From assembly GCA_030672485.1 (NCBI GenBank), contig DAOVGH010000027.1:1-26003 (forward strand): a stretch of DNA of 26,003 nucleotides, given 5' to 3'. Under the pieces are notes generated by a model. That model searched no databases, had not been told where the DNA came from, and saw nothing but the letters and a program-made list of their open reading frames with translations. Every line of letters starts with the position of its first letter. Position 1 is the first letter of the stretch. Both the position numbers and the translations under genes were made by a program. The DNA comes from Desulfobacterales bacterium (lineage in GTDB: Bacteria; Desulfobacterota; DSM-4660; Desulfatiglandales; B25-G16). This document shows, piece by piece, positions 15,401 through 26,003 of this stretch.

Positions 15401-16831
15401 TTAGTTGCCTGGTTTTGCTTCTTCTGCGGATATTTTTCTTATAGCCTCGGCCACGAGCTTCAGCTCTTTTTCCTGGATCGTTCTTACATCCAGTAGAACG
15501 CGGCCTTTCTCCAATCGTGCTATGACAGGCGGATCAGAGGACCTCAAGGACTCCACTATATGAGGGGCGGACAATTTAGCGGGGGATATGCTGAGAAGCG
15601 TGCTCCGTAGCCCCTCCAAAGGCATAGCGCCACCACCAACATAAGAGAAACCATCACACAGGCTTATTGAGAACTTACGTGCATCTATCTTTCCAATAAG
15701 GCCCGCTAATTTTTTCGCTTTTCGACACAGGCTTTGATACGACTGGCATAACATTCTCAGGGTGGGTATCTGTCTCACTGCCCTGTCCTTATCCCTGTAC
15801 ATGTGAAGCGTTTCCTGAAGTGCAGTGAGCGTTAATTTGCCCACCCTGAGGGCCCTGTTCAATTGATTGGTCTTTATGGTCGAAATAATCCCCTTCTTTC
15901 CGAGAATTATCCCGCATTGTGGGCCACCCAACATCTTATCACCACTAAAGGTAACTAAATCCGCCCCTTTTGCTACGGAATCCTGAACTGTTGGTTCTCT
16001 TTTAAGTCCGTACCTTGAAAAATCGACGAGGCAACCGCTACCAAGATCCTCCATTACCGGTAGGCTGTATTTCTTTCCCAAGGCAGCAAGCTCTTCTAAT
16101 CCAACTTCCTCCGTAAATCCAACTATTTGAAAATTGCTTGTGTGAACCTTGAGTAAGAGAGCGGTATCTGGTCCGATAGCAGACTCATAATCATTGATAG
16201 TTGTCTTGTTGGTAGTCCCCACCTCAACCATACGCGCCCCGCTTTTCTTCATGACCTCAGGTATCCGAAAGGAACCGCCAATCTCCACCAACTGACCCCT
16301 GGAGATTATAACTTCCCTATCTTTGGCGATAGTATCCAGGGCAATGAGAACTGCGGCTGCATTATTATTGACAACCGTAGCTCCCCCGGCCCCGGTCAGC
16401 TCCATGAGGATCTCTTCCACATGCACATATCGACTACCCCTTTTGCCAGTCCTCAGATCATATTCCAGGTTGCTATAACAACCTGCCAAGGAGTTTAATC
16501 CCTCAATAACCTTTTTTGATAAGGGGGATCGGCCCAAATTAGTATGCACAATAACCCCGGTGGCATTGATGACATGTCTTAATCCCTGCTGAGATAGAAC
16601 TGATACCCTCCTTACTATCTGATCGACTACATTGTTCAACTCTAAATCTGGCAGCTCATCGTCTGTTCGAGCTCTGTCTATCTTTCCCCTCAGTTCATCC
16701 AGGATTTGGTGAATTGCCCTCAAAACCAAAGCTCTTGGAGTAGTCAACAAGACCCCTCCAACAGGAGACGACTCCAATAGGTAATCCACAGATGGTATCT
16801 GCCTAAAGATCAAGTTCTTGCTATCCTCCAC
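15401..16831 (-). CDS. selA: L-seryl-tRNA(Sec) selenium transferase (476 aa from GTG 16831)
   Basis: VINATGVIVHTNLGRS, NNNAAAV, SRGQLVEIGGSFRIP, EVGTTNKT, EDLGSG, FSGDKMLGGPQ (PLP lysine). The track's extension to 16939 runs into tRNA-His; an AGGGG SD precedes GTG 16831. Confidence 0.96.
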   Translation of the reverse strand: MEDSKNLIFRQIPSVDYLLESSPVGGVLLTTPRALVLRAIHQILDELRGKIDRARTDDELPDLELNNVVDQIVRRVSVLSQQGLRHVINATGVIVHTNLGRSPLSKKVIEGLNSLAGCYSNLEYDLRTGKRGSRYVHVEEILMELTGAGGATVVNNNAAAVLIALDTIAKDREVIISRGQLVEIGGSFRIPEVMKKSGARMVEVGTTNKTTINDYESAIGPDTALLLKVHTSNFQIVGFTEEVGLEELAALGKKYSLPVMEDLGSGCLVDFSRYGLKREPTVQDSVAKGADLVTFSGDKMLGGPQCGIILGKKGIISTIKTNQLNRALRVGKLTLTALQETLHMYRDKDRAVRQIPTLRMLCQSYQSLCRKAKKLAGLIGKIDARKFSISLCDGFSYVGGGAMPLEGLRSTLLSISPAKLSAPHIVESLRSSDPPVIARLEKGRVLLDVRTIQEKELKLVAEAIRKISAEEAKPGN

Positions 16832-16911
16832 CGCTATACCCCTTTGAATAACTATAACAAAAATATCCGGTTGCCAACCAGCAAATAGTATGATAGAAAA
16901 CAAGATTGTGT

Positions 16912-16988
16912 GGTGGGTGTAGCTCAGCTGGTAGAGCACTGGGTTGTGGCCCCAGTGGTCGCGGGTTCAAGTCCCGTCACTCACCCCA
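16912..16988 (+). tRNA. tRNA-His (anticodon GUG) with encoded G-1 and CCA
   Basis: G-GTGGGTG acceptor pairs with CACTCAC-C; D arm GCTC...GAGC; anticodon arm CTGGG-TTGTGGC-CCCAG; T arm GCGGG-TTCAAGT-CCCGT; CCA at 16986-16988. Confidence 0.97.
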
Positions 16989-17788: not shown

Positions 17789-20302
17789 TTAATATAGATC
17801 ATCCAGTTCATCTTCTCCGCCGGGCATTCTACCGTGTTCCTGTAAATATTGCTGGATCAGCTCACTTTCCCTCTTTGAATAGAGCGGGTTTTCCTCGTAC
17901 TGAAACCAGGCTACCTTATTGTTGTCCTCAAATACCTCAAGCAGGGTCTCTCTCATATTGATGACACCCTTTATAAGCAAGACCCTTTTGTCAGCATCCA
18001 GCAGTTCGTACACGCCCTCCCCTTCCGGCATGAGCTGAATATTGTCCTCGGTCCATTTCATCAATTTTGCCGGAGGAGGGGTAACCTTCCCCATCTGTAA
18101 TCTCAGATCACATTGCAAACAGCGGGCGGCCTCTTTCCTGGCATGTTCAGGATCAAAACCAAGGGCTACCCCTTCAAAGCACTTGAGTCTTTCTGCCACC
18201 GGCAGTTCCGGAACCTTCTCCCTTGGTAGGTCGGCGAAACCCTCCATTCTTCCCACTGTAGGAGAGAGGGGCTCGGGTTGAAAAAGGCCCTCCTCGATAT
18301 CCCCGTTTCCACCCAGAAACCTGTCGATGGAAGATGCTGCCCTTCTACTCGCCACTATGGCATGAATAATTGCGCCGGGTATCTGAGTCACATCTCCACC
18401 GGCAAATACCCCGGGCATCCCGGTTTCAAGTGTCTCCTGATCCACTACTATCATGCCCCTTTGTATATCAATGGGGCTGCCCGAGTCAATAAAACCAAGA
18501 TCTGAGGCCTGACCTATTGACAGTATAACCTGGTCGGCCTCCACCACCCTTGTTCTGTCATCAAAGCTTGGGGAAAGATTTCCCTCCTGATCAAAAGCGC
18601 GGGCACAACCAATGAGCTCAATGCCCTGTAGTTGGCCATCCTTGCCCAATATCCTCTTCGGGCCCCATGATGTCATGAGGTTGACTCCGTCTTCTATGGC
18701 CTGGTCGATCTCCTGTGCATCTGCCGGCATCTCCTCCCTCTTTTCCAGGCAGGCCATGGTAACATTGGTGGCACCACACCTCAGGGCTGTCAGGGCCACA
18801 TCAACAGCAACGTTCCCTCCACCAATGACGACTACCCTATCCTCTAGTTTGACATGCTTGCGCTCCTTTGCCTGGAAGAGAAAAGCAACACCCCACAACA
18901 CACCGTTCAGATCTGAACCCTCAAGCTCTATCCTTCGGCTCAGCTGGGCACCAACGGCTAAGAATATTGCCTCATAGCCCTCGTTTTTCAGTTGATCAAT
19001 AGTGAAATCCTTTCCCAGTGTGTTTCCTGCTCTGAGCTCTATGCCTGACTCGAGGATATCCCGGATTTCCTTTTCCACGACACTCGAGGGAAGCCGGTAA
19101 TCAGGGATCCCGTACCTCATCATACCACCAGGTAGCGGCCTTGACTCGAATACCGTCACCCGATGGCCGAGCTTCTTCAGGTAAAAGGCAGCTGTGAGCC
19201 CCGCAGGGCCAGAACCAATAACCGCCACCTTATGTCCCGTATCACCCTTAAGGTTCACCGGGCTCTTCCACAATCCGTGCTCACTGTCTGCCGCAAACCT
19301 TTTGAGTGCACAGATGGATATGGGCTCGTTGACATCGCCCCTCCTGCAAACATCCTCACAGGGCCTGGTACAGACCCTGCCCAAGATACCGGGGAACGGG
19401 ACCTTTTCCCTTATTACGGCATTTGCCTCATCCGTCTTTCCCTCGGCAATAAGCCTCACATAACCCGGTATATTAACATGTGCGGGACACGCCGCCTTGC
19501 AAGGAAGGAGATCTTCCTCCTCTTGCCCCGCCCTAATATTCTTATCCATCAGTGACCCTGTGGGGCACACCCCTACACATGCAGTACAGAATCTGCACCC
19601 GGATTCAGCTAAAGCAGGGGATAGCGAACCAACCTGGATGTCGCCCCTTTCATCGAAAACAAAGCCCAGTGCCCCTACCCCCCTCAGATCATTGCAGGCC
19701 CTTACACATCTCAAGCACCCAATACAGAGATTATAGTTCCTTTCAAAGAGTGGTTCATGCTTAACAAGGGGCAAATCAGTAGGAATCCAGCGTGGGGTTG
19801 CGGGATCTATACCAACCCAGTTGGCCACGTCCTGGAGCTCACAGTGACCAAGCAGCTCACAGCACCGCTCCTCTACCGGAACATCCAGCGAACACTCAAG
19901 CCGGTCACACCCTTCCCGCTGAGGACATGCCAGGCACGCATGGGGGTGTCGCGTCATGGTTGAGATGAGGTTCTTTCTCCTCTCCTCCCTGATCCTGTCG
20001 CTGTCGGTCACGATCACCATACCCTCTGCTGCTTCTGTACTACACGACCTTACCAGGTCGGGGAGGTCTTGAACGGCAACCAAGCAGATACCGCATCCCT
20101 CACTCATACGCTCGGGCATTGCGTTGGCAATCCTCTTTTCCCCCCGGTAGATAAGCTCTGCCGCTTTCAGCCCCTCTGAGCTCTTTAGATCAGGATGGTA
20201 ACACACCGTCGGAATATAGATCCCTGCCTTCTGTGCGGCCTCAAGAATGCTAGCCCCTTGTTCAACCTGAACCCGTTTAGAATCAATGGTTACCGTTACC
20301 AT
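17789..20302 (-). CDS. bzdV: BzdV-like Fe-S flavoprotein NAD(P)H oxidoreductase (2Fe-2S + NuoG-like 4Fe-4S + 2x4Fe-4S + GltD/SudA-like FAD/NAD(P)H domains + C-terminal extension)
   Basis: IPTVC...GCGICLV...SC; HPHACLAC; CIGCLRCVRAC and CRFCTACVGVCP; PCKAACP, GRVCTRPCEDVC; VIGSGPAG; VIGGGNVA; EAARCLQCD. Start overlaps the ferredoxin stop (TAATG); position after bzdNOPQM parallels the Azoarcus bzd cluster. Confidence 0.8.
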   Translation of the reverse strand: MVTVTIDSKRVQVEQGASILEAAQKAGIYIPTVCYHPDLKSSEGLKAAELIYRGEKRIANAMPERMSEGCGICLVAVQDLPDLVRSCSTEAAEGMVIVTDSDRIREERRKNLISTMTRHPHACLACPQREGCDRLECSLDVPVEERCCELLGHCELQDVANWVGIDPATPRWIPTDLPLVKHEPLFERNYNLCIGCLRCVRACNDLRGVGALGFVFDERGDIQVGSLSPALAESGCRFCTACVGVCPTGSLMDKNIRAGQEEEDLLPCKAACPAHVNIPGYVRLIAEGKTDEANAVIREKVPFPGILGRVCTRPCEDVCRRGDVNEPISICALKRFAADSEHGLWKSPVNLKGDTGHKVAVIGSGPAGLTAAFYLKKLGHRVTVFESRPLPGGMMRYGIPDYRLPSSVVEKEIRDILESGIELRAGNTLGKDFTIDQLKNEGYEAIFLAVGAQLSRRIELEGSDLNGVLWGVAFLFQAKERKHVKLEDRVVVIGGGNVAVDVALTALRCGATNVTMACLEKREEMPADAQEIDQAIEDGVNLMTSWGPKRILGKDGQLQGIELIGCARAFDQEGNLSPSFDDRTRVVEADQVILSIGQASDLGFIDSGSPIDIQRGMIVVDQETLETGMPGVFAGGDVTQIPGAIIHAIVASRRAASSIDRFLGGNGDIEEGLFQPEPLSPTVGRMEGFADLPREKVPELPVAERLKCFEGVALGFDPEHARKEAARCLQCDLRLQMGKVTPPPAKLMKWTEDNIQLMPEGEGVYELLDADKRVLLIKGVINMRETLLEVFEDNNKVAWFQYEENPLYSKRESELIQQYLQEHGRMPGGEDELDDLY

Positions 20303-20598
20303 TATCTATCCCACGAATGTGAGATGGCGTCCTGGGGGCATGCCTCAACACAGGGAAGCGCAGGTCTATTGGTTGGAGGCTTACACGGGCCACATTCATA
20401 CTTGAGTTTTCGCCCCTTATCCCTGGCAACAATCACAACAGGGTCTTCCCTGAAGGGATCGTTTGGATCCTCATCCACTACCTCAAATACAGTACCGGGA
20501 CAGGCCTCAACACATCTACCACACCCATCGCACTTATCGGTATCTACGGCTATGAAATAGTCTCCTGAACCATCCTTATACCCGTAATTGGCGATCAA
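20302..20598 (-). CDS. bzdM: 2x[4Fe-4S] ferredoxin associated with benzoyl-CoA reductase (98 aa, TTG start)
   Basis: ANYGYKDGSGDYFIAVDTDKCDGCGRCVEACP ... CGPC...CVEACP..AISHSW; AGGAGG SD 7 nt before the TTG at 20598. Confidence 0.85.
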   Translation of the reverse strand: MIANYGYKDGSGDYFIAVDTDKCDGCGRCVEACPGTVFEVVDEDPNDPFREDPVVIVARDKGRKLKYECGPCKPPTNRPALPCVEACPQDAISHSWDR

Positions 20599-20614
20599 CC
20601 GGCCACCTCCTGGA

Positions 20615-21505
20615 CTATTTCCTCCTTCCCTTTCCCTTTTGAACCAGGGCATAGCCAAAAAGGGCAGCGCCTGCTGCGCCTGCGATCTGTGTATCCCACT
20701 CGGTATGCATGGGCTCCACACCGATCTCTTTGGTGAGCCTCTCTATGACGCCCCTATTTTTGGCCAAGCCACCGGTGATGGCAAACCCCTTTTCTATGCC
20801 TATCCTCTCAATAAGCGTAAAAATTCTGTGGCCCATTGCTGAGCAGTAGGCTGCCAAAACCTCGTTGACCGCCCAGCCCTTCCTGAGCAATCCCGTTGCC
20901 TCTGTCTTGGCATAGACGACACAGATGCTGCTAACCGGTTCGGGCTCTTCCTTAACCTCGAAAGAGCGTTCACCGACATCCACAATGGGAACCGACAGGA
21001 GATCGGCAAAGACCTCCATACCCCTCCCCGTACCTGCGGCACATTTATCGTTCATCAAAAAATTGGTAACCTTTCCCTTTTCATCACAGCGAATGGCCTT
21101 GCAATCCTGTCCGCCAATATCGAGAACGGTTCGTACCTCCGGCCCATATATGAAGTGTGCCCCCCTGGCATGGCAGGCTATCTCCGTAATTGATCTGTCC
21201 GCCATCGGGACATTAACCCTCCCATAGCCCGTGCCAATACAATAATCTATGCGGGACTCGGGCATACTGGTGCCCTCCAGGCCCAAATTTAACGCATTTC
21301 TGGCACTTTCAGGGCTATCAGATCCCGTGCGCATATTGGAATAGGCGTAAACCTGTCCATCAGTCATTACCACCGCCTGGGAGCTGACAGAGCCAACATC
21401 AATACCGACGGTGACGATCTTTGCATCTTCCCATTTGATGTCCGGGTTCTTCCAATTTGACTCAGTCCACCTCCAGTATTCTTGCTTCTTTTCCTCTTCT
21501 CCCAC
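20615..21505 (-). CDS. bzdQ: Benzoyl-CoA reductase (bzd-type) ATPase/activase subunit Q
   Basis: N-terminal EYWRWTE extension, GIDVGSVSS, GTGYGR, TEIACHARGA, LDIGGQDCK, MNDKCAAGTGRG, CVVYAK, ITGGLAKN. Confidence 0.9.
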   Translation of the reverse strand: MGEEEKKQEYWRWTESNWKNPDIKWEDAKIVTVGIDVGSVSSQAVVMTDGQVYAYSNMRTGSDSPESARNALNLGLEGTSMPESRIDYCIGTGYGRVNVPMADRSITEIACHARGAHFIYGPEVRTVLDIGGQDCKAIRCDEKGKVTNFLMNDKCAAGTGRGMEVFADLLSVPIVDVGERSFEVKEEPEPVSSICVVYAKTEATGLLRKGWAVNEVLAAYCSAMGHRIFTLIERIGIEKGFAITGGLAKNRGVIERLTKEIGVEPMHTEWDTQIAGAAGAALFGYALVQKGKGRRK

Positions 21506-21514
21506 CTTAATCTC

Positions 21515-22288
21515 CTATGCCTCTTCCTTCAATACCACAGCCGCGCCAACCGCAGCGCCAAAGGCGGGGTCAGCCGGTATATAGACCCTATCAATCCCCA
21601 ATTCCCTTTTAAGGCATCCCACAAACCCGGGGTTCAATGCAACTCCTCCGATCATGACAATATCCTCGTTTACACCAATCCTCCTAATCATCGATACAAT
21701 CCTGCTTGCCATTGCATCATGAATTGCCTTACTGATATCCTCCTTAACGGTCTTTGCATGGATCAAACCAACTACCTCCGATTCAGCAAAGATGGCGCAC
21801 TGGGCATTCATGGGGATAGATTTATCAGACCGGAGGGCCATTGGGCCCATCTCCTCCAGTTCAACCTCGATGGCCCTCGCCATTGCCTCTATAAAGGCAC
21901 CAGCACCCGCGGCACATTTTTCATTAATGGCAAAGTCGATCACCTTACCCCTTTCATCAATCTTTACTGCCCTGCCCATTTCAGCGCCAACATCGGTCAC
22001 TGTCCTTGCTGAGGGAAAAAAGTAATTGGCGGCCTTGGCCATTGCCCTTATCTCATTAACCTTCATGGCCGCATCTTTGATCTCTTCCATCCCCGCACCA
22101 GTTCCACTGATTTTATCGACATCCCGTGCATCAATGCCCGCATCCTTCAGGGAAGCATCCAATGATTCCTTAACGGCACTGGCTTGATCAAAGCCCGTAA
22201 GGGTCATGCCCTTTCCGATTATCTTCCCATCTCTCAGAATGACCGATTTTGTGTTCTTTGCACCACAGTCAATTCCCGCTATTATCAT
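21515..22288 (-). CDS. bzdP: Benzoyl-CoA reductase (bzd-type) ATPase/activase subunit P
   Basis: AGIDCGAKNTK, DVGAEMGRA, INEKCAAGAGAF, NAQCAIFAESEV, GGVALNPG. Confidence 0.9.
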   Translation of the reverse strand: MIIAGIDCGAKNTKSVILRDGKIIGKGMTLTGFDQASAVKESLDASLKDAGIDARDVDKISGTGAGMEEIKDAAMKVNEIRAMAKAANYFFPSARTVTDVGAEMGRAVKIDERGKVIDFAINEKCAAGAGAFIEAMARAIEVELEEMGPMALRSDKSIPMNAQCAIFAESEVVGLIHAKTVKEDISKAIHDAMASRIVSMIRRIGVNEDIVMIGGVALNPGFVGCLKRELGIDRVYIPADPAFGAAVGAAVVLKEEA

Positions 22289-22314
22289 GCCTCATCTCCT
22301 TGCCGTCGCCTATA

Positions 22315-23628
22315 CTATCCCTCCGGCTTTTTAAGGCCCAGGCTTTCGAGAAATATATCAAACCGTGTCTCAGTTGCCGGTAAATCAAACTCCGTCTCAT
22401 CACCCATGTTGCCTTCGTAGGTCATGACCTTGTTTCCCCTTTGGAGCAAGCCTAAGCGATTCTCCGCAATACCGACCGACAGTCCCTCACATCCCCTGTT
22501 GTAATGTAGGATGATACCGTCACACCTCCAGTTTTTTGCAATAGCATCCATCATCTTTGTCTTGTATTCCGGGTGGTAAAAATGCTGATACTGCGGTTTG
22601 CTTAGGTGCCAGTCGGCCAGCATCATACAGGCTTCCTCGCGGGACCTGGGCTTCTCAGGCGGCATGGGTCGAGGCCTCAGATCATTTTTCTCGTCGTCAT
22701 AGAGCCACATCCCCTCAAGTCCAAATGTATAGAGAGAACCAATAGATACCACACCACAGGTTTCCAGGTAGCGATAGATCTTTAAAAATCCCCATGGAGG
22801 CTGAGTATCGGTCATAACGCGTGCCTGCTCATTTGCCACGGCAGCTATTCCCCTTTTTACCCTGTCCTCTACCTCCTCCAAAAGCTCCTCATAGAATTCC
22901 GCAAACTCGCCCCGAGACTTTTGGAGCGTTGCGAAGACATAGAGGGAATAAATGGATTTCTCATCCAGGGGTGCCGGAACAGCCCTGTTTAACATGCATA
23001 TCTTGGCCCAGGTATGGGTGAGCCTGATATCATTCCAGCACGCCTCGAAGAATAGCTCGTCATTGTAAGTTCTTCCGGTAATCTTTTCCATCCATTCTAT
23101 GGAATCCAGTATCTGATCGGCCACGTACCTTAGCCGGTGTTCATACATCTCAGGCTGGAACGGTGGATAGGCCCCTACACCGACATCAATGACATAGAGA
23201 GGAACATCGCCGGCTTCAAGTTCACAGGCATTTTGATACCACTTGCCATGAGAGCAGCATATATGTTGCGTATAGGCAAAATCTGCCTTGGGAAAAGCAC
23301 CGCCAAAGGCAGATTTGTTCACTATGATGGATCCCCAGTAGTTTCTCATATATGAGCATAGATCCCTTGAAAAACCGAAGTTTTCGGCCGCGGCCAGAAA
23401 ATCAGCGGAAAGGGGCCTGTCAAATGCACAGGAGGCGCCATATGGCTCCCCCGTAACCCAGTAGACATCTCTGCCCAGGCCCATGGTAACGGCATCCAGT
23501 GCCCATGCACTTCCCACACATCGAATTCCGCCCTTCTCATGAGCCCCTTTAAAGTCCTCATAGAATCTCTTTCGTAATTCCTTGGCCTTGGCCCAACATC
23601 TCAAAGGTTCAGTGGGGTATTTCGCCAT
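22315..23628 (-). CDS. bzdO: Benzoyl-CoA reductase (bzd-type) subunit O (2-hydroxyacyl-CoA dehydratase family)
   Basis: GEPYGAS, RDLCSYMRNYWG, HICCSHGKWYQ, DTQPPW, NRGCEG, YEGNMGD; operon context. Confidence 0.9.
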   Translation of the reverse strand: MAKYPTEPLRCWAKAKELRKRFYEDFKGAHEKGGIRCVGSAWALDAVTMGLGRDVYWVTGEPYGASCAFDRPLSADFLAAAENFGFSRDLCSYMRNYWGSIIVNKSAFGGAFPKADFAYTQHICCSHGKWYQNACELEAGDVPLYVIDVGVGAYPPFQPEMYEHRLRYVADQILDSIEWMEKITGRTYNDELFFEACWNDIRLTHTWAKICMLNRAVPAPLDEKSIYSLYVFATLQKSRGEFAEFYEELLEEVEDRVKRGIAAVANEQARVMTDTQPPWGFLKIYRYLETCGVVSIGSLYTFGLEGMWLYDDEKNDLRPRPMPPEKPRSREEACMMLADWHLSKPQYQHFYHPEYKTKMMDAIAKNWRCDGIILHYNRGCEGLSVGIAENRLGLLQRGNKVMTYEGNMGDETEFDLPATETRFDIFLESLGLKKPEG

Positions 23629-23656
23629 TTTCCTATCCTCTTCATGTCACTACAAC

Positions 23657-24805
23657 CTAAAACAGATCTTCTTCTGCCTCAAGCGTCTCCAGAAATGCCT
23701 CTGTCCGGATCGCAAAAGGACCAGCAGCTACCGTAACGTCGAACTCCAGGAAATAGGTGGGGATGCCGTTGTCTTCCAGGAATTTCCTGATAAAGGGTAT
23801 GTCGGCTTCATGGGGATCGCAGAATTTCTGCTGGATGACAATGGCACCATCAACCCTGAAGTCCTTTGCTAGCTCTAGAATCCTCTGTAGTCGGGTTCTC
23901 TGCGGCCAATCCTTGGAAGGGCACGGTGTTCTTGAGACATACCTTTCAGCAATTGCCCTCAATGGATCATCGATATTCGTATCGACTTCATCCCAGAAGT
24001 ACCTCGTTGTTGTACAGTGTTCCTCCACCACCACCGTACAGCCGACCGATTCACGCTCACCAAGCGTTTCAATCATATTGATATATTCAATATCATCATT
24101 CTCACTCCCGACGAGCATAATCCTCTTACCGGGGTCACGATCAAGCCTCCGGGAGGCCAGTTCCCTCTTTACGTCTTCTGCCACCGGCAAAAACTCCCTT
24201 GCATCCGTGAAGAACTGGGCACAGGTCATATACATGGCCTCTGTTCCGCTTATAGGAGGATTGTCCTCTTTCCTGAACTCGTAGATCTCCTTCATGACCT
24301 TTCTGGCCTTGTTCATAATGTCTATACCCTGTCTCAAATCGTCATCAGTTATCCTCCTGCCGGCTAACTCCTCTATCTTCTTGATCAGCAACCTGTATTC
24401 CTCTACCAGAAAGGGGACGGCCCTTTTACTCTGGACGTGATTGGGCATGGGCAGAAAATAACTCCAGCCCGGATTCTTGTGTAGATCCCAACTGGTAAAG
24501 GCCTGGCGAAGATGGAGGCAGGATTGTCCAATCGCTATGCCATCGAGGTAGTCGTATCGCCCCTTTATTCCCTGGGCCAAGACATCCCTGCAAAAAGGGC
24601 AAAACATGCTAAATATATGCGGCTCGGTAACATCCTGGGGCTCGTGGGAACCGAGAATCCTGACGGGCAGTATATCCGCGGCATAAAAGATCTCCTCAGG
24701 TGTGTAGGTACAGAAATATCCAACGATCTTATTGCCTGTCCTGTCCTTATACCCCTTTTGGTACTCATGCCTGTTTTCGTACCATTCTCGAAACTTCTCT
24801 ATCAT
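23657..24805 (-). CDS. bzdN: Benzoyl-CoA reductase (bzd-type) subunit N (2-hydroxyacyl-CoA dehydratase family)
   Basis: GYFCTYTPEE, MFCPFCRDVLAQG, QSCLHLRQAF, EEHCTTTRYF, QQKFCDPHEAD. ATG 24805 preferred (AGGAG SD at 7 nt); the track uses GTG 24823. Confidence 0.9.
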   Translation of the reverse strand: MIEKFREWYENRHEYQKGYKDRTGNKIVGYFCTYTPEEIFYAADILPVRILGSHEPQDVTEPHIFSMFCPFCRDVLAQGIKGRYDYLDGIAIGQSCLHLRQAFTSWDLHKNPGWSYFLPMPNHVQSKRAVPFLVEEYRLLIKKIEELAGRRITDDDLRQGIDIMNKARKVMKEIYEFRKEDNPPISGTEAMYMTCAQFFTDAREFLPVAEDVKRELASRRLDRDPGKRIMLVGSENDDIEYINMIETLGERESVGCTVVVEEHCTTTRYFWDEVDTNIDDPLRAIAERYVSRTPCPSKDWPQRTRLQRILELAKDFRVDGAIVIQQKFCDPHEADIPFIRKFLEDNGIPTYFLEFDVTVAAGPFAIRTEAFLETLEAEEDLF

Positions 24806-24832
24806 CTCGAGGCTCCTTTTCACCTATAGGGC

Positions 24833-25276
24833 CTAATCAAGGATCTTCTCCAGGTTAATAAAGTCACATCTGCTGAATCCAAGGGATTTGAAAAAGGATA
24901 GCAGGTCAGTTGAGTCCCACTTAACCGATGTAAACACATTTCTTATACCGATTTTCTTAAATGCGCCGAGAGCCTCCCCGGCCATCATTTTTCCGATTCC
25001 GCGTCCCATATATCTCGGGTCAACACCAAAGAGCCCGATCCAGGCACTTTTCTCCAGACCAAATCCGCCATAGATAACATAGGTAATCATGTAGCCCGCC
25101 ACCTTGCCATCAAGCTCGGCCACAAAGCTCACCCTATCCTCTTTGTCTGCCTCTGCCTCAACAACCCTCTGGTAATCTATTGTGCCAGGACCCTTTGTAA
25201 TTGCCTCCTGGATTCTGGAAATGTCATCGGCATCACGGGCCTCTAACCTTCTAATCAGGAGATTTTCCACTCTCAT
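24833..25276 (-). CDS. GNAT-family N-acetyltransferase-fold protein
   Basis: SFVAELDGKVAGY, IGLFGVDPRYMGRGIG (motif A, R/QxxGxG), LLSFFKSLGF; SD GAGGAGG. Confidence 0.88.
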   Translation of the reverse strand: MRVENLLIRRLEARDADDISRIQEAITKGPGTIDYQRVVEAEADKEDRVSFVAELDGKVAGYMITYVIYGGFGLEKSAWIGLFGVDPRYMGRGIGKMMAGEALGAFKKIGIRNVFTSVKWDSTDLLSFFKSLGFSRCDFINLEKILD

Positions 25277-25304
25277 AAGCCCTCCTCTAACCAGAGTCCA
25301 CTGC

Positions 25305-25481
25305 CTAGTCTATCCTGATTATCTTTACGTGCTTGCCGACCCAATCCGGTGGAAGATATATCCGGCCACTGTTACCGCTCAGTTTTACCTCTTTTGCGAG
25401 CATCTCCTCACCAAAGATCTCAAATTTCACCTTTTTTGTGTCCTGGACTCTAGCTGCCAAGTTTTTTCTTCTATTGTTCAT
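25305..25481 (-). CDS. Unannotated 58-aa protein, DUF2080/AbrB-like (below the ORF-track size cutoff)
   Basis: Manual translation: MNNRRKNLAARVQDTKKVKFEIFGEEMLAKEVKLSGNSGRIYLPPDWVGKHVKIIRID*. The GNSGRIYLPPDWVGKHVKII signature resembles DUF2080 and swapped-hairpin proteins. It lies between a promoter and the GNAT gene, co-oriented with them. Confidence 0.8.
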   Translation of the reverse strand: MNNRRKNLAARVQDTKKVKFEIFGEEMLAKEVKLSGNSGRIYLPPDWVGKHVKIIRID

Positions 25482-25526
25482 CTATGTAACTAAGACTCCT
25501 AATTCCCACAATGTGATTATAATTTA

Positions 25527-25556
25527 GCTATAATGTAACTACATTAGCCTTGTCAA
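25527..25556 (-). promoter_or_regulatory. Putative sigma70 promoter of the microprotein-GNAT-bzd operon
   Basis: Minus strand reads TTGACA-18 nt-TATAGC (or 17 nt-TTATAG), implying a start ~40 nt before the 58-aa ORF. Confidence 0.6.
25531..25546. promoter_or_regulatory. Perfect palindromic operator candidate
   Basis: TAATGTA-AC-TACATTA inverted repeat in the promoter spacer; the core ATGTAACTA recurs at 25484-25492. Confidence 0.65.
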
Positions 25557-25576
25557 CAAAAAAATAAAAAAAATAA

Positions 25577-25619
25577 TTTGGATCCCTTTTAACGTATTAA
25601 GGTAACCCTTTTGGATCCC
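25577..25619. promoter_or_regulatory. Direct repeat TTTGGATCCC x2, 33 bp apart
   Basis: Copies at 25577-25586 and 25610-25619 in the divergent intergenic region. Confidence 0.5.
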
Positions 25620-25753: not shown

Positions 25754-26003
25754 ATGTCTTATGAAACCATTATCTATGAGGTGGAGGAAAATATTGCCGT
25801 CATCAAATTTAACCGGCCCAAGGTCTTAAATGCTATCAATCGGACACTGATACAGGAGCTGAAGGATGCCGTGGAGAGGGTTGCCGCCGATAAATCCATA
25901 AAGGTCCTTATCCTGACGGGAACTGGGGATAAGGCCTTTATTTCAGGGGCAGATATAGCCTTGATGAGGGGTTTTACCCCATTAGAGGGCAGGGCCTTCT
26001 CAA
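25754..26003 (+). CDS. Enoyl-CoA hydratase/crotonase-family protein, 3' partial
   Basis: MSYETIIYEVEENIAVIKFNRPKVLNAIN...VLILTGTGDKAFISGADI (crotonase N-terminus with oxyanion motif); SD AAAGGAG; runs off the window, so absent from the track. Confidence 0.9.
   Translation, partial: MSYETIIYEVEENIAVIKFNRPKVLNAINRTLIQELKDAVERVAADKSIKVLILTGTGDKAFISGADIALMRGFTPLEGRAFS

What the first reader, a model, noticed from the sequence alone, without database searches (positions are those of the whole stretch)
24833..25556. Candidate undescribed regulatory system: AbrB-like microprotein + GNAT + operator heading the reductase operon
Seen: promoter with a palindrome in its spacer, then a 58-aa DUF2080/AbrB-like ORF, 28 bp, a GNAT, 27 bp to the bzdN ATG. 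No BzdR, BadM or sigma54 activator gene is in the window. Established: swapped-hairpin proteins bind DNA as dimers; small DNA-binding protein + GNAT pairs autoregulate in TA modules (AtaRT, TacAT, there with RHH partners); GNAT folds can act as CoA sensors (PanZ); the GNAT BadL controls benzoyl-CoA reductase expression in R. palustris. Inference: the pair forms a repressor complex sensing an acyl-CoA (benzoyl- versus acetyl-CoA), or the GNAT acetylates the microprotein or reductase, gating an ATP-expensive enzyme.
Basis: partly seen in the sequence, partly recalled or inferred. Interest (0 to 1): 0.8.

Follow-up and report, generated by a model that had tools for sequence, protein, structure and literature searches.

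The report
Microprotein–GNAT control cassette heading ring-reductase operons
A tiny basic protein and a small acetyltransferase-like protein, always encoded together behind a promoter with three 11-bp repeats, sit in front of the genes for anaerobic benzene-ring reduction in many uncultured sulfate-reducer relatives and are probably an undescribed switch for those genes.

Summary
On the minus strand a TTGACA box and an AT-rich element precede a 58-aa DUF2080 gene, then 28 nt, a 147-aa GNAT gene, then 27 nt and bzdNOPQ.

Comparative data change the reading of the DNA element. The conserved feature is an array of two or three tandem 11-bp units (core TAG[C/T]TA).

- **Pairing:** the two genes are near-obligately linked, in 80/80 loci and 44/45 GNAT orthologues in an even phylum sample.
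- **Copy number and context:** mostly one DUF2080 copy per genome, with no transposase seen in the neighbour clusters and loci annotated.
- **Downstream genes:** about half the pairs head a benzoyl-CoA reductase operon, either class I (bzd) or unrelated class II (bamB).
- **Other promoters:** in larger genomes the same array also precedes other acyl-CoA or aromatic-type catabolic operons.

The best reading is an autoregulated regulator cassette, analogous to BadM/BadL but with a different DNA-binding partner. This is inferred, not shown. AbrB-likeness is inconclusive, and nothing here shows that the two proteins bind each other or that the microprotein binds DNA. A toxin–antitoxin reading is unlikely. 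This scan had already noted the same module on other DNA. In the literature I found only one passing mention.

The parts
25551..25577 (-). T-run followed by a -35-like TTGACA (25556-25551)
   Evidence: Read directly. The T-run plus TTGACA block is conserved in nearly all related loci.
25510..25542 (-). Array of three tandem 11-bp units: GTAGTTACATT (25542-25532), ATAGCTAAATT (25531-25521) and ATAATCACATT (25520-25510). Candidate operator overlapping the -10 region.
   Evidence: Alignment of upstream regions. At least two in-phase TAG[CT]T cores occur in 49/80 upstream windows, against 28/3784 random windows and 3/4000 shuffles. It is the only such array in this assembly.
25531..25546 (.).
   Evidence: Among the loci scanned it is perfect only in the window, L018 and L022, while the right arm is conserved everywhere.
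25484..25492 (-). Fourth TAGTTACAT copy just before the start codon, 49 nt from unit 1 and out of phase. Specific to this window.
   Evidence: Not conserved in the alignment.
25305..25481 (-). 58-aa basic microprotein of the DUF2080 family (6.7 kDa, pI about 10). Residues 16-58 are nearly invariant across relatives; the N-terminal tail is variable and charged.
   Evidence: An RNA-library contig covers 25404-25510.
24833..25276 (-). 147-aa GNAT-fold protein. The GxG acyl-CoA loop is kept (M90-G-x-G-I-G95). Phe129 replaces the usual general-acid Tyr.
17789..24823 (-). Downstream operon: bzdN (23657-24805/24823), bzdO (22315-23628), second activase-type ATPase (21515-22288), bzdQ (20615-21505), ferredoxin (ends at 20302) and an 837-aa FeS/flavin oxidoreductase (17789-20302)
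   Evidence: NCBIfam and Pfam matches. The same synteny occurs in L003/L006/L008.
25754..26002 (+). Divergent enoyl-CoA hydratase gene, cut by the contig end, sharing the intergenic region with the cassette
   Evidence: In relatives the divergent unit continues with thiolase, acyl-CoA dehydrogenase, a CoA mutase, a B12-binding protein and MeaB.

Best explanation
The DUF2080 microprotein and the GNAT form a dedicated, autoregulated transcription-control cassette for anaerobic aromatic (benzoyl-CoA) catabolism.

**Proposed mechanism**
- The basic microprotein, as an oligomer, binds the 2-3 tandem 11-bp units. These lie one helical turn apart and overlap the core promoter of its own operon. Binding would repress the cassette, the reductase genes transcribed with it and, in larger genomes, other catabolic promoters carrying the same array.
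- The GNAT converts a metabolic signal into release of the microprotein. It could make an acylated small-molecule effector, as BadL does. Alternatively it could bind an acyl-CoA or transfer its acyl group to the microprotein.

**What is shown**
- Gene pairing.
- Conservation of the cis-array and its co-occurrence with the microprotein gene.
- Position in front of both reductase classes.

**What is inferred**
- DNA binding by the microprotein.
- The direction of control (repression).
- The role of the GNAT.
For: 1. **Near-obligate pairing.** All 80 GNAT loci have DUF2080 directly upstream on the same strand. In an even sample of 300 genomes of the phylum, 44 of 45 GNAT orthologues (at least 116 bits) do too.
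2. **Strong purifying selection.** The 43-residue core of the microprotein is about 77% identical per column, with 29 invariant positions, and the protein is basic.
3. **Conserved promoter array.** T-run, TTGACA and 11-bp repeats are conserved while their flanks are not. The array is strongly enriched over controls (49/80 against 28/3784).
4. **Array tracks the microprotein.** The pattern gave 0 hits in 5 bamB-positive genomes without DUF2080. It hit just upstream of DUF2080 in 3 of 5 genomes with it.
5. **Arrays at other promoters.** In the larger genomes G002 and G004, arrays in the same promoter arrangement precede other catabolic genes. These include a FAD-oxidase/FeS, acyl-CoA ligase and thiolase operon, a hydantoinase, SDRs and a solo-DUF2080-bamB unit. 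The pattern is enriched over the reversed control in G004 (12+8 against 1+2).
6. **Link to the reductases.** In the phylum sample, 25 of 43 pairs lie directly upstream of bamB. Among the 80 loci, 28-32 of 66 informative ones head bzd or bam operons. BamB occurs in 39/45 genomes with DUF2080 against 53/255 without it.
7. **Copy number.** Mostly one DUF2080 copy per genome, with a family-level distribution. MazE-type genes reach 10 per genome in the same order.
8. **Precedents.** BadM-BadL (repressor plus GNAT next to reductase genes; PMC6191541). MraZ, an AbrB-related regulator, binds four repeated boxes in its own promoter (PMC12957436).
9. **Weak MazE-like motif.** The stretch GNSGRvYLP matches PF04014 below threshold in 18 of 21 members.
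10. **Possible transcription.** A cold-seep RNA library holds contigs on the microprotein gene, its 5' leader, bzdN and bzdO.
Against: - There is no direct evidence that the microprotein binds DNA. Its AF2 model is poor (pLDDT 64), there is no structural match, and profile-profile similarity to MazE/AbrB is negligible.
- About a third of the loci show no reductase within 10 kb. There the pair stands alone or sits inside other operons without an array.
- More distant solo DUF2080 paralogues pair with a pyridine-nucleotide-disulphide oxidoreductase and lack arrays.
- The -10 element in this window is ambiguous, so repression versus activation cannot be decided.
- The pair was not detected in the proteome of the ORM2 benzene-degrading culture (PMC13101534).
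- Arrays were defined on DUF2080 promoters, so their co-occurrence with DUF2080 is partly circular. The genomes compared are related to one another.
Confidence: 0.5

Rival explanations
1. The array is recognised by another, unidentified regulator or is a special promoter class. The pair is merely the first cargo of the regulated operon. In this reading the GNAT is an enzyme, for example a BadL-like small-molecule acetyltransferase or a modifier of the reductase or a CoA ligase. The microprotein would be its non-DNA-binding partner, substrate or adaptor.
For: - No fold or profile evidence shows that DUF2080 binds DNA.
- Solo DUF2080 paralogues sit tightly upstream of unrelated enzymes (Pyr_redox_2, bamB), as a subunit or adaptor might.
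- The GNAT fold resembles small-molecule and protein N-acetyltransferases.
- In R. palustris acetylation controls the pathway through BadL.
Against: - The array follows the DUF2080 gene whatever lies downstream: bzd, bam, an MFS transporter or nothing.
- The array was not found in bamB-positive genomes lacking DUF2080.
- No other regulator gene is conserved next to the cassette.
- The microprotein is basic and carries the MazE-like GNS..V.(I/L)P motif.
Confidence: 0.27
2. The pair is a type II toxin-antitoxin module: a GNAT toxin that acetylates aminoacyl-tRNA, neutralised by a DUF2080 antitoxin that autorepresses the promoter.
For: - The gene order (small DNA-binding-like protein first, then a GNAT) and the autoregulatory-looking promoter fit this class.
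- A DUF2080 protein was validated as the antitoxin of a nuclease toxin (PMC10440598).
- GNAT toxins such as TacT and AtaT are established (my own knowledge).
Against: - The pair shows conserved synteny with catabolic operons, mostly one DUF2080 copy per genome and a family-level distribution. MazE-type genes reach 10 copies per genome in the same order.
- Sequence conservation is very high.
- No transposase or other mobile-element gene was seen in the neighbour clusters and loci annotated.
- The GNAT matches no toxin model in NCBIfam at E of 1e-3 or better. At 145-147 aa it is shorter than the roughly 160-175 aa I recall for TacT/AtaT-type toxins. It has Phe in place of the catalytic Tyr.
- The microprotein has no C-terminal neutralising extension.
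- Solo DUF2080 genes head bamB.
Confidence: 0.06
3. DUF2080 here is a remnant of a transposon-associated gene, as its database name says, with no role in the operon.
For: Pfam and NCBIfam name the family 'transposon-encoded' or 'transposase-associated'.
Against: - No transposase was seen in the frequent neighbour clusters that were annotated or in the two fully annotated loci.
- The protein core is nearly invariant across hundreds of loci.
- Its position is fixed, directly upstream of the GNAT.
Confidence: 0.02

Closest known systems
BadM-BadL of Rhodopseudomonas palustris, with the Rrf2+GNAT pairs of Magnetospirillum magneticum and Geobacter metallireducens (PMC6191541)
   Same: A small DNA-binding repressor gene and a small GNAT gene are encoded together next to benzoyl-CoA reductase genes, in organisms with either reductase class. 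The GNAT is required for induction.
   Different: The partner here is a 58-aa DUF2080 microprotein, not an Rrf2-family protein. The gene order is regulator then GNAT at the head of the reductase operon. The operator is a tandem 11-bp repeat array. Whether this GNAT is a BadL orthologue or acetylates aminobenzoates could not be tested. Its canonical catalytic Tyr is Phe.
MraZ and the SpoVT/AbrB/MazE-type regulators
   Same: A small beta-rich regulator is encoded as the first gene of the operon it controls. MraZ binds several repeated boxes in its own promoter as an oligomer (PMC12957436). There is motif-level similarity to the MazE N-terminal strand-loop (GNS..V.(I/L)P).
   Different: There is no threshold-level match to PF04014 and no match to MraZ. 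The swapped-hairpin fold is not demonstrated. Unit length and sequence (11 bp, TAG[C/T]TA) differ. The obligatory GNAT partner has no counterpart.
GNAT toxin-antitoxin modules (TacAT, AtaRT, KacAT)
   Same: A two-gene operon with a small protein followed by a GNAT, and an apparently autoregulated promoter.
   Different: Those antitoxins are RHH/DUF1778 proteins, and the modules are sporadic, mobile and multi-copy. This pair is mostly single-copy, syntenic with catabolic operons, highly conserved, and its GNAT lacks the catalytic Tyr.
BzdR (Azoarcus/Aromatoleum) and other benzoyl-CoA-responsive repressors
   Same: A repressor-type operator overlaps the promoter of a bzdNOPQ operon.
   Different: The protein families are unrelated, and no effector-binding domain lies on the DNA-binding protein itself.

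Membership tests
DUF2080 (PF09853 / NCBIfam NF033496) | Profile match above the curated cut-off | tested here: met
   PF09853 scores 23.4 bits (cut-off 21.5). NF033496 scores 65.5 bits (cut-off 22) over the full 34-position model. All 21 aligned relatives match PF09853.
DUF2080 (PF09853 / NCBIfam NF033496) | Association with a transposase, as the family name implies | tested here: not met
   No transposase was seen in the frequent neighbour clusters that were annotated or in the fully annotated loci L003 and L004. Not every neighbour cluster was annotated.
SpoVT/AbrB/MazE superfamily (PF04014) | Profile match at family threshold | tested here: not met
   13.6 bits against a cut-off of 24.7, E 0.066. 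Matches are sub-threshold in 18/21 members, best E 0.045.
SpoVT/AbrB/MazE superfamily (PF04014) | Profile-profile homology to bona fide members | tested here: inconclusive
   hhalign of A2 against 23 PF04014 domains from the same order aligns only 12 columns, at probability 1.4%. The query alignment has low diversity (Neff 1.5).
SpoVT/AbrB/MazE superfamily (PF04014) | Swapped-hairpin beta-barrel formed by a dimer | tested here: inconclusive
   The AF2 monomer has pLDDT 64 and three strands. Foldseek against the PDB finds nothing at E below 2.7. No homodimer fold was run.
GNAT superfamily (PF00583) | Profile match and GNAT fold | tested here: met
   PF00583 E 6e-13. The AF2 model has pLDDT 79 and pTM 0.77. 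Foldseek probability is 1.00 to many GNAT structures.
GNAT superfamily (PF00583) | Acyl-CoA pyrophosphate-binding loop (Q/R-x-x-G-x-G/A) | tested here: met
   M90-G-x-G93-I-G95 with invariant glycines. The first position is Met rather than Gln or Arg.
GNAT superfamily (PF00583) | General-acid Tyr in the motif before the last strand | tested here: not met
   Invariant Phe129 aligns with the Tyr of YpeA (LGMYERLGY against LSFFKSLGF).
GNAT toxin-antitoxin modules (TacAT/AtaRT type) | Toxin family match and an RHH/DUF1778 antitoxin | tested here: not met
   No toxin or DUF1778 model appears among the Pfam or NCBIfam hits.
GNAT toxin-antitoxin modules (TacAT/AtaRT type) | Sporadic, multi-copy, mobile distribution | tested here: not met
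   Mostly one DUF2080 copy per genome, conserved synteny and a family-level distribution, in contrast to PF04014 genes.
GNAT toxin-antitoxin modules (TacAT/AtaRT type) | Growth arrest by the GNAT, rescued by the partner | not testable with these tools
   Needs an expression test in a laboratory strain.
BadM/BadL-type regulator-GNAT pair | Regulator and GNAT genes adjacent, next to benzoyl-CoA reductase genes | tested here: met
BadM/BadL-type regulator-GNAT pair | Regulator of the Rrf2 family | tested here: not met
   The partner matches only DUF2080, with no Rrf2 domain.
BadM/BadL-type regulator-GNAT pair | GNAT orthologous to BadL and acetylating aminobenzoates | not testable with these tools
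   No BadL sequence was obtainable through the tools. Enzyme activity needs an assay.

The most novel reading that the evidence does not exclude
The cassette is an acyl-CoA-driven acylation switch. The GNAT would use benzoyl-CoA (or the benzoyl-/acetyl-CoA balance) to acylate lysines of the microprotein. That would release the microprotein from the 11-bp repeat array. One regulator system would then control both unrelated classes of benzoyl-CoA reductase. In larger genomes it would also control other aromatic-activation operons, including FAD-oxidase/FeS clusters of the kind proposed for anaerobic benzene activation.
Probability: 0.12. Interest if true: 0.85.

Novelty: new variant of a known kind. 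Interest (0 to 1): 0.62.

Why it matters
To my knowledge, control of benzoyl-CoA reductase in strict anaerobes is poorly understood. This enzyme carries out the key, energetically costly step of anaerobic aromatic degradation.

A compact cassette that travels with both the ATP-dependent (bzd) and the tungsten-dependent (bam) reductase, in many uncultured Desulfobacterota from marine sediments and cold seeps, would be a widespread regulator of hydrocarbon and aromatic turnover.

It would also give DUF2080, now annotated as 'transposase-associated', a first cellular function. The promoter-operator unit is small and easy to test.

The same gene pair appears to have been noticed and set aside in the benzene-degrading ORM2 culture (PMC13101534), where it could be studied directly.

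Tried and rejected
- **Complex prediction:** GNAT plus microprotein, one copy each, scored 0.00 = no support, no verdict either way.
- **Fold of the microprotein:** the AF2 monomer has low confidence. Foldseek against the PDB gave only chance-level hits such as Hfq and CBMs. An HMM search of PDB sequences found nothing.
- **AbrB/MazE homology by hhalign:** only a 12-column motif match at 1.4% probability.
- **Rosetta-stone search:** among the 150 best 50%-identity cluster representatives of the GNAT profile, no DUF2080-GNAT or recognisable HTH-GNAT fusion appeared. Several have long unannotated N-terminal extensions, and many are tandem double-GNAT proteins.
- **Next-closest GNATs:** these are about 35% identical, occur in genomes without DUF2080 and sit in unrelated contexts with no small regulator upstream. 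They say nothing about BadL orthology.
- **Sigma-70 scan:** it did not call the minus-strand promoter. It found one plus-strand site, within chance expectation.
- **Palindrome as operator:** rejected in favour of the tandem repeats.
- **Transposon-remnant reading:** rejected (see the rival explanations).
- **RNA evidence:** only short Logan contigs from one metatranscriptome. They show presence in an RNA library, not a transcription start site and not co-transcription.

Full report
**What is in the window**

The window is the whole contig C56 of a 719-kb, 56%-complete assembly. Near-identical DNA occurs in marine-sediment and cold-seep metagenomes.

- a T-run and TTGACA at 25556-25551;
- the palindrome TAATGTA-GT-TACATTA at 25546-25531;
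- a 58-aa ORF at 25305-25481;
- 28 nt, then a 147-aa ORF at 24833-25276;
- 27 nt to the ATG of the next gene.

The small ORF is a bona fide DUF2080 member (PF09853 23.4 bits, NF033496 65.5 bits). The second ORF is a GNAT (PF00583 E 6e-13).

The genes downstream match bzdN, bzdO, a second activase-type ATPase, bzdQ, a ferredoxin and an 837-aa FeS/flavin oxidoreductase. An enoyl-CoA hydratase gene diverges upstream. I found no other regulator gene in the window.

**The pair is a conserved module**

- The microprotein has 782 relatives and the GNAT more than 2,000. Many share contigs.
- A scan of species-representative genomes gave 297 GNAT loci. In all 80 that were kept, a DUF2080 gene lies directly upstream on the same strand.
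- In an evenly drawn sample of 300 genomes of the phylum, DUF2080 occurs in 45, concentrated in certain families, and most carry a single copy.
- In that sample 44 of the 45 GNAT orthologues (at least 116 bits, own genome included) have DUF2080 immediately upstream (coordinates compared by hand).
- Residues 16-58 of the microprotein are almost invariant (29 invariant columns). The N-terminal tail is variable and charged. The protein is basic, with pI about 9-10.
- The GNAT is 65-87% identical across these lineages.

**Genomic context**

Clustering the neighbours of the 80 loci and annotating the clusters gave three kinds of downstream context.
- **Class I reductase:** bzdNOPQ follows the pair in 5-6 loci.
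- **Class II reductase:** bamB (a tungsten AOR-family protein) with BamC-, BamD-, BamE- and BamF-like genes follows in 23-27 loci.
- **Other:** an MFS transporter, or nothing (a convergent gene), in the remainder.

Upstream, the close relatives carry a divergent thiolase, hydratase, acyl-CoA dehydrogenase and CoA-mutase unit. More distant ones carry a methyltransferase and a transglutaminase-like gene.

In the phylum sample, 25 of the 43 pairs in other genomes lie directly upstream of bamB, and one more lies 3.4 kb away. BamB is present in 39 of 45 genomes with DUF2080 against 53 of 255 without it. Related genomes are not independent, so this is an association, not a test.

No transposase appears in the neighbour clusters and loci I annotated, despite the family's database name.

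**The cis-element**

Aligning the regions upstream of the microprotein gene showed a conserved block that is absent from the flanks. It consists of a T-run, TTGACA and then tandem 11-bp units.
- In the window's lineage the units are (A/G)TAGTTACATT, ATAGCTAAATT and ATAATCACATT.
- In the next group they are CGTAGTTACTT, TGTAGCTAAAT and TGTAGTTAAAT, starting one base after TTGACA. A TAAATT -10 then falls at a 17-nt spacing.
- Further groups have two AATGTAGCTTT units.

That arm is perfect only in the window and two other loci.

With a strict definition (TAG[CT]T cores exactly 11 nt apart), 49 of 80 upstream windows have two or three units. The same holds for 28 of 3,784 random windows from the same loci and 3 of 4,000 shuffles.

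In this window the array spans 25542-25510. Its -10 is ambiguous:
- TTATAG at 17 nt lacks the T at position 6, and the scan tool does not call it.
- A perfect TATAAT lies inside unit 3.
- The only RNA-library contig over the leader ends at 25510. That hints at a start site but does not establish one.

**Does the array belong to the microprotein?**

- In the small genomes (this one, G001 and G003) the array occurs once, at the cassette.
- In the larger genomes G002 and G004 the same arrangement of TTGACA plus array precedes other genes that lack the pair. These are:
  - a FAD-oxidase/FeS-CCG fusion followed by an acyl-CoA ligase and a thiolase-like gene (three loci);
  - a hydantoinase-type carboxylase subunit;
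  - SDRs;
  - a CCG protein;
  - a solo DUF2080 gene directly followed by bamB.

  A Zn-alcohol-dehydrogenase-type gene in G005 shows the same arrangement.
- The pattern was absent from five bamB-positive genomes without DUF2080. It lay just upstream of DUF2080 in three of five genomes with it.

This is what a regulon of a DUF2080 regulator would look like. The samples are small, and the pattern was derived from DUF2080 promoters, so the argument is partly circular.

**What the proteins look like**

The GNAT folds confidently (pLDDT 79) into a generic small GNAT. Its nearest solved relatives are YpeA, RimI/Naa-type enzymes, and aminoglycoside and polyamine acetyltransferases.
- It keeps the glycine loop for the CoA pyrophosphate.
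- It has an invariant Phe where YpeA and most GNATs have the general-acid Tyr.

The microprotein gave a poor monomer model and no structural match. Its only link to AbrB/MazE is the stretch GNSGRvYLP. That stretch matches the start of PF04014 below threshold in 18 of 21 members and aligns over 12 columns in hhalign at 1.4% probability. I therefore treat 'AbrB-like' as a lead, not a finding.

**Literature**

- DUF2080 appears in four papers in the library. One validates a DUF2080 protein as the antitoxin of a nuclease toxin (PMC10440598).
[quoted passage not shown] This is very probably the same pair, but I could not check the sequences.
- BadL/BadM (PMC6191541) is the functional precedent. A GNAT encoded with a repressor next to reductase genes makes acetamidobenzoates that release the repressor. 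Homologous Rrf2+GNAT pairs exist in Magnetospirillum and Geobacter.
- MraZ (PMC12957436) shows an AbrB-related first-gene regulator binding four repeated boxes as an oligomer.

**Earlier notes of this scan**

The scan had already described the same module on other DNA (e1-1390328, e1-2868819, e1-2372507). It had also described HTH-GNAT fusions before reductase operons (e1-1351072, e1-926104). I saw these notes only after deriving the repeats myself. They agree with my reading but are not independent evidence. I looked for such fusions among the closest GNAT relatives and found none.

**Weighing**

- The comparative facts fit a dedicated regulatory cassette best. They are obligate pairing, mostly single copy, a conserved array in the cassette's own promoter and in other catabolic promoters, and a position before two unrelated reductase classes.
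- A toxin-antitoxin module is unlikely on distribution, conservation, context and the missing catalytic Tyr.
- Another factor could bind the array, with the microprotein serving as a partner or substrate of the GNAT. This remains a serious alternative, because DNA binding is not shown.
- The sign of regulation and the signal sensed are open.

I rate the best explanation at about 0.5. I file the finding as a new variant of a known kind, a regulator-plus-GNAT control of benzoyl-CoA reductase in which the regulator is an unrelated microprotein and the operator is a tandem-repeat array.

Noticed in passing
L093/L120:2700-8444, L099/L121, L102 (genomes G004, G002): The same TTGACA plus 11-bp repeat array precedes an operon without the pair. 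It encodes a FAD-oxidase fused to an FeS/CCG domain (864 aa), an AMP-forming acyl-CoA ligase and a thiolase-like protein. This resembles the FAD-oxidoreductase/FeS genes of the 'Magic' benzene cluster of ORM2 (PMC13101534).
   Followed up: partly
L103, L114, L112, L095, L090, L105: Further array-bearing promoters precede a hydantoinase/oxoprolinase-type gene, three SDR genes, a Zn-alcohol-dehydrogenase-type gene and a CCG-domain gene. Together they look like a possible regulon.
   Followed up: partly
L122:8136-8309 (-) and L122:7399-8010 (-): In genome G002 a third DUF2080 copy with a full array is followed after 126 nt by bamB, with no GNAT between them.
   Followed up: partly
L164:1354-2926, L165:2899-4484, L169:3339-4925, L171:3160-4754: In one GC-rich family, solo DUF2080 paralogues sit 9-20 nt upstream of a roughly 480-aa pyridine-nucleotide-disulphide oxidoreductase. 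They lie inside operons and have no repeat array. This is a second recurrent DUF2080 partnership.
   Followed up: partly
Proteins P0272, P0276, P0281 and about 40 others: Many of the nearest non-orthologous relatives of the GNAT are tandem double-GNAT proteins of 300-345 aa.
   Followed up: no
window:25550-25577 (+): A plus-strand sigma-70-like site (TTGTCA, 16 nt, AATAAT) for the divergent hydratase gene overlaps the TTGACA of the cassette promoter, so one bound protein might affect both directions. The count of such sites is within chance expectation.
   Followed up: no
window:22435-22604, 24084-24181, 24504-24661, 25351-25510: A cold-seep metatranscriptome library (run X20) holds short contigs at 99% identity or more on bzdO, bzdN and the microprotein gene with its leader. 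It holds none on the upstream intergenic region or the hydratase gene.
   Followed up: partly
window:4079-4177 (+), 15401-16939 (-), 16913-16988 (+): A tRNA-Sec gene and selA lie in the same window as a class I reductase. The listed selA ORF start overlaps a tRNA-His gene by 27 nt, so its true start is probably further downstream.
   Followed up: no
window:20302-20721 (-): The ferredoxin ORF as listed (GTG start) overlaps the end of bzdQ by about 100 nt. The orthologue in L003 is 96 aa, so the real start is probably later.
   Followed up: no
L012:4421-6097, L008:6491-6898, L003:7668-8627: In relatives, the unit divergent from the cassette carries a methylmalonyl-CoA-mutase-family protein, a B12-binding protein and MeaB. 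These sit beside thiolase, hydratase and acyl-CoA dehydrogenase genes.
   Followed up: no
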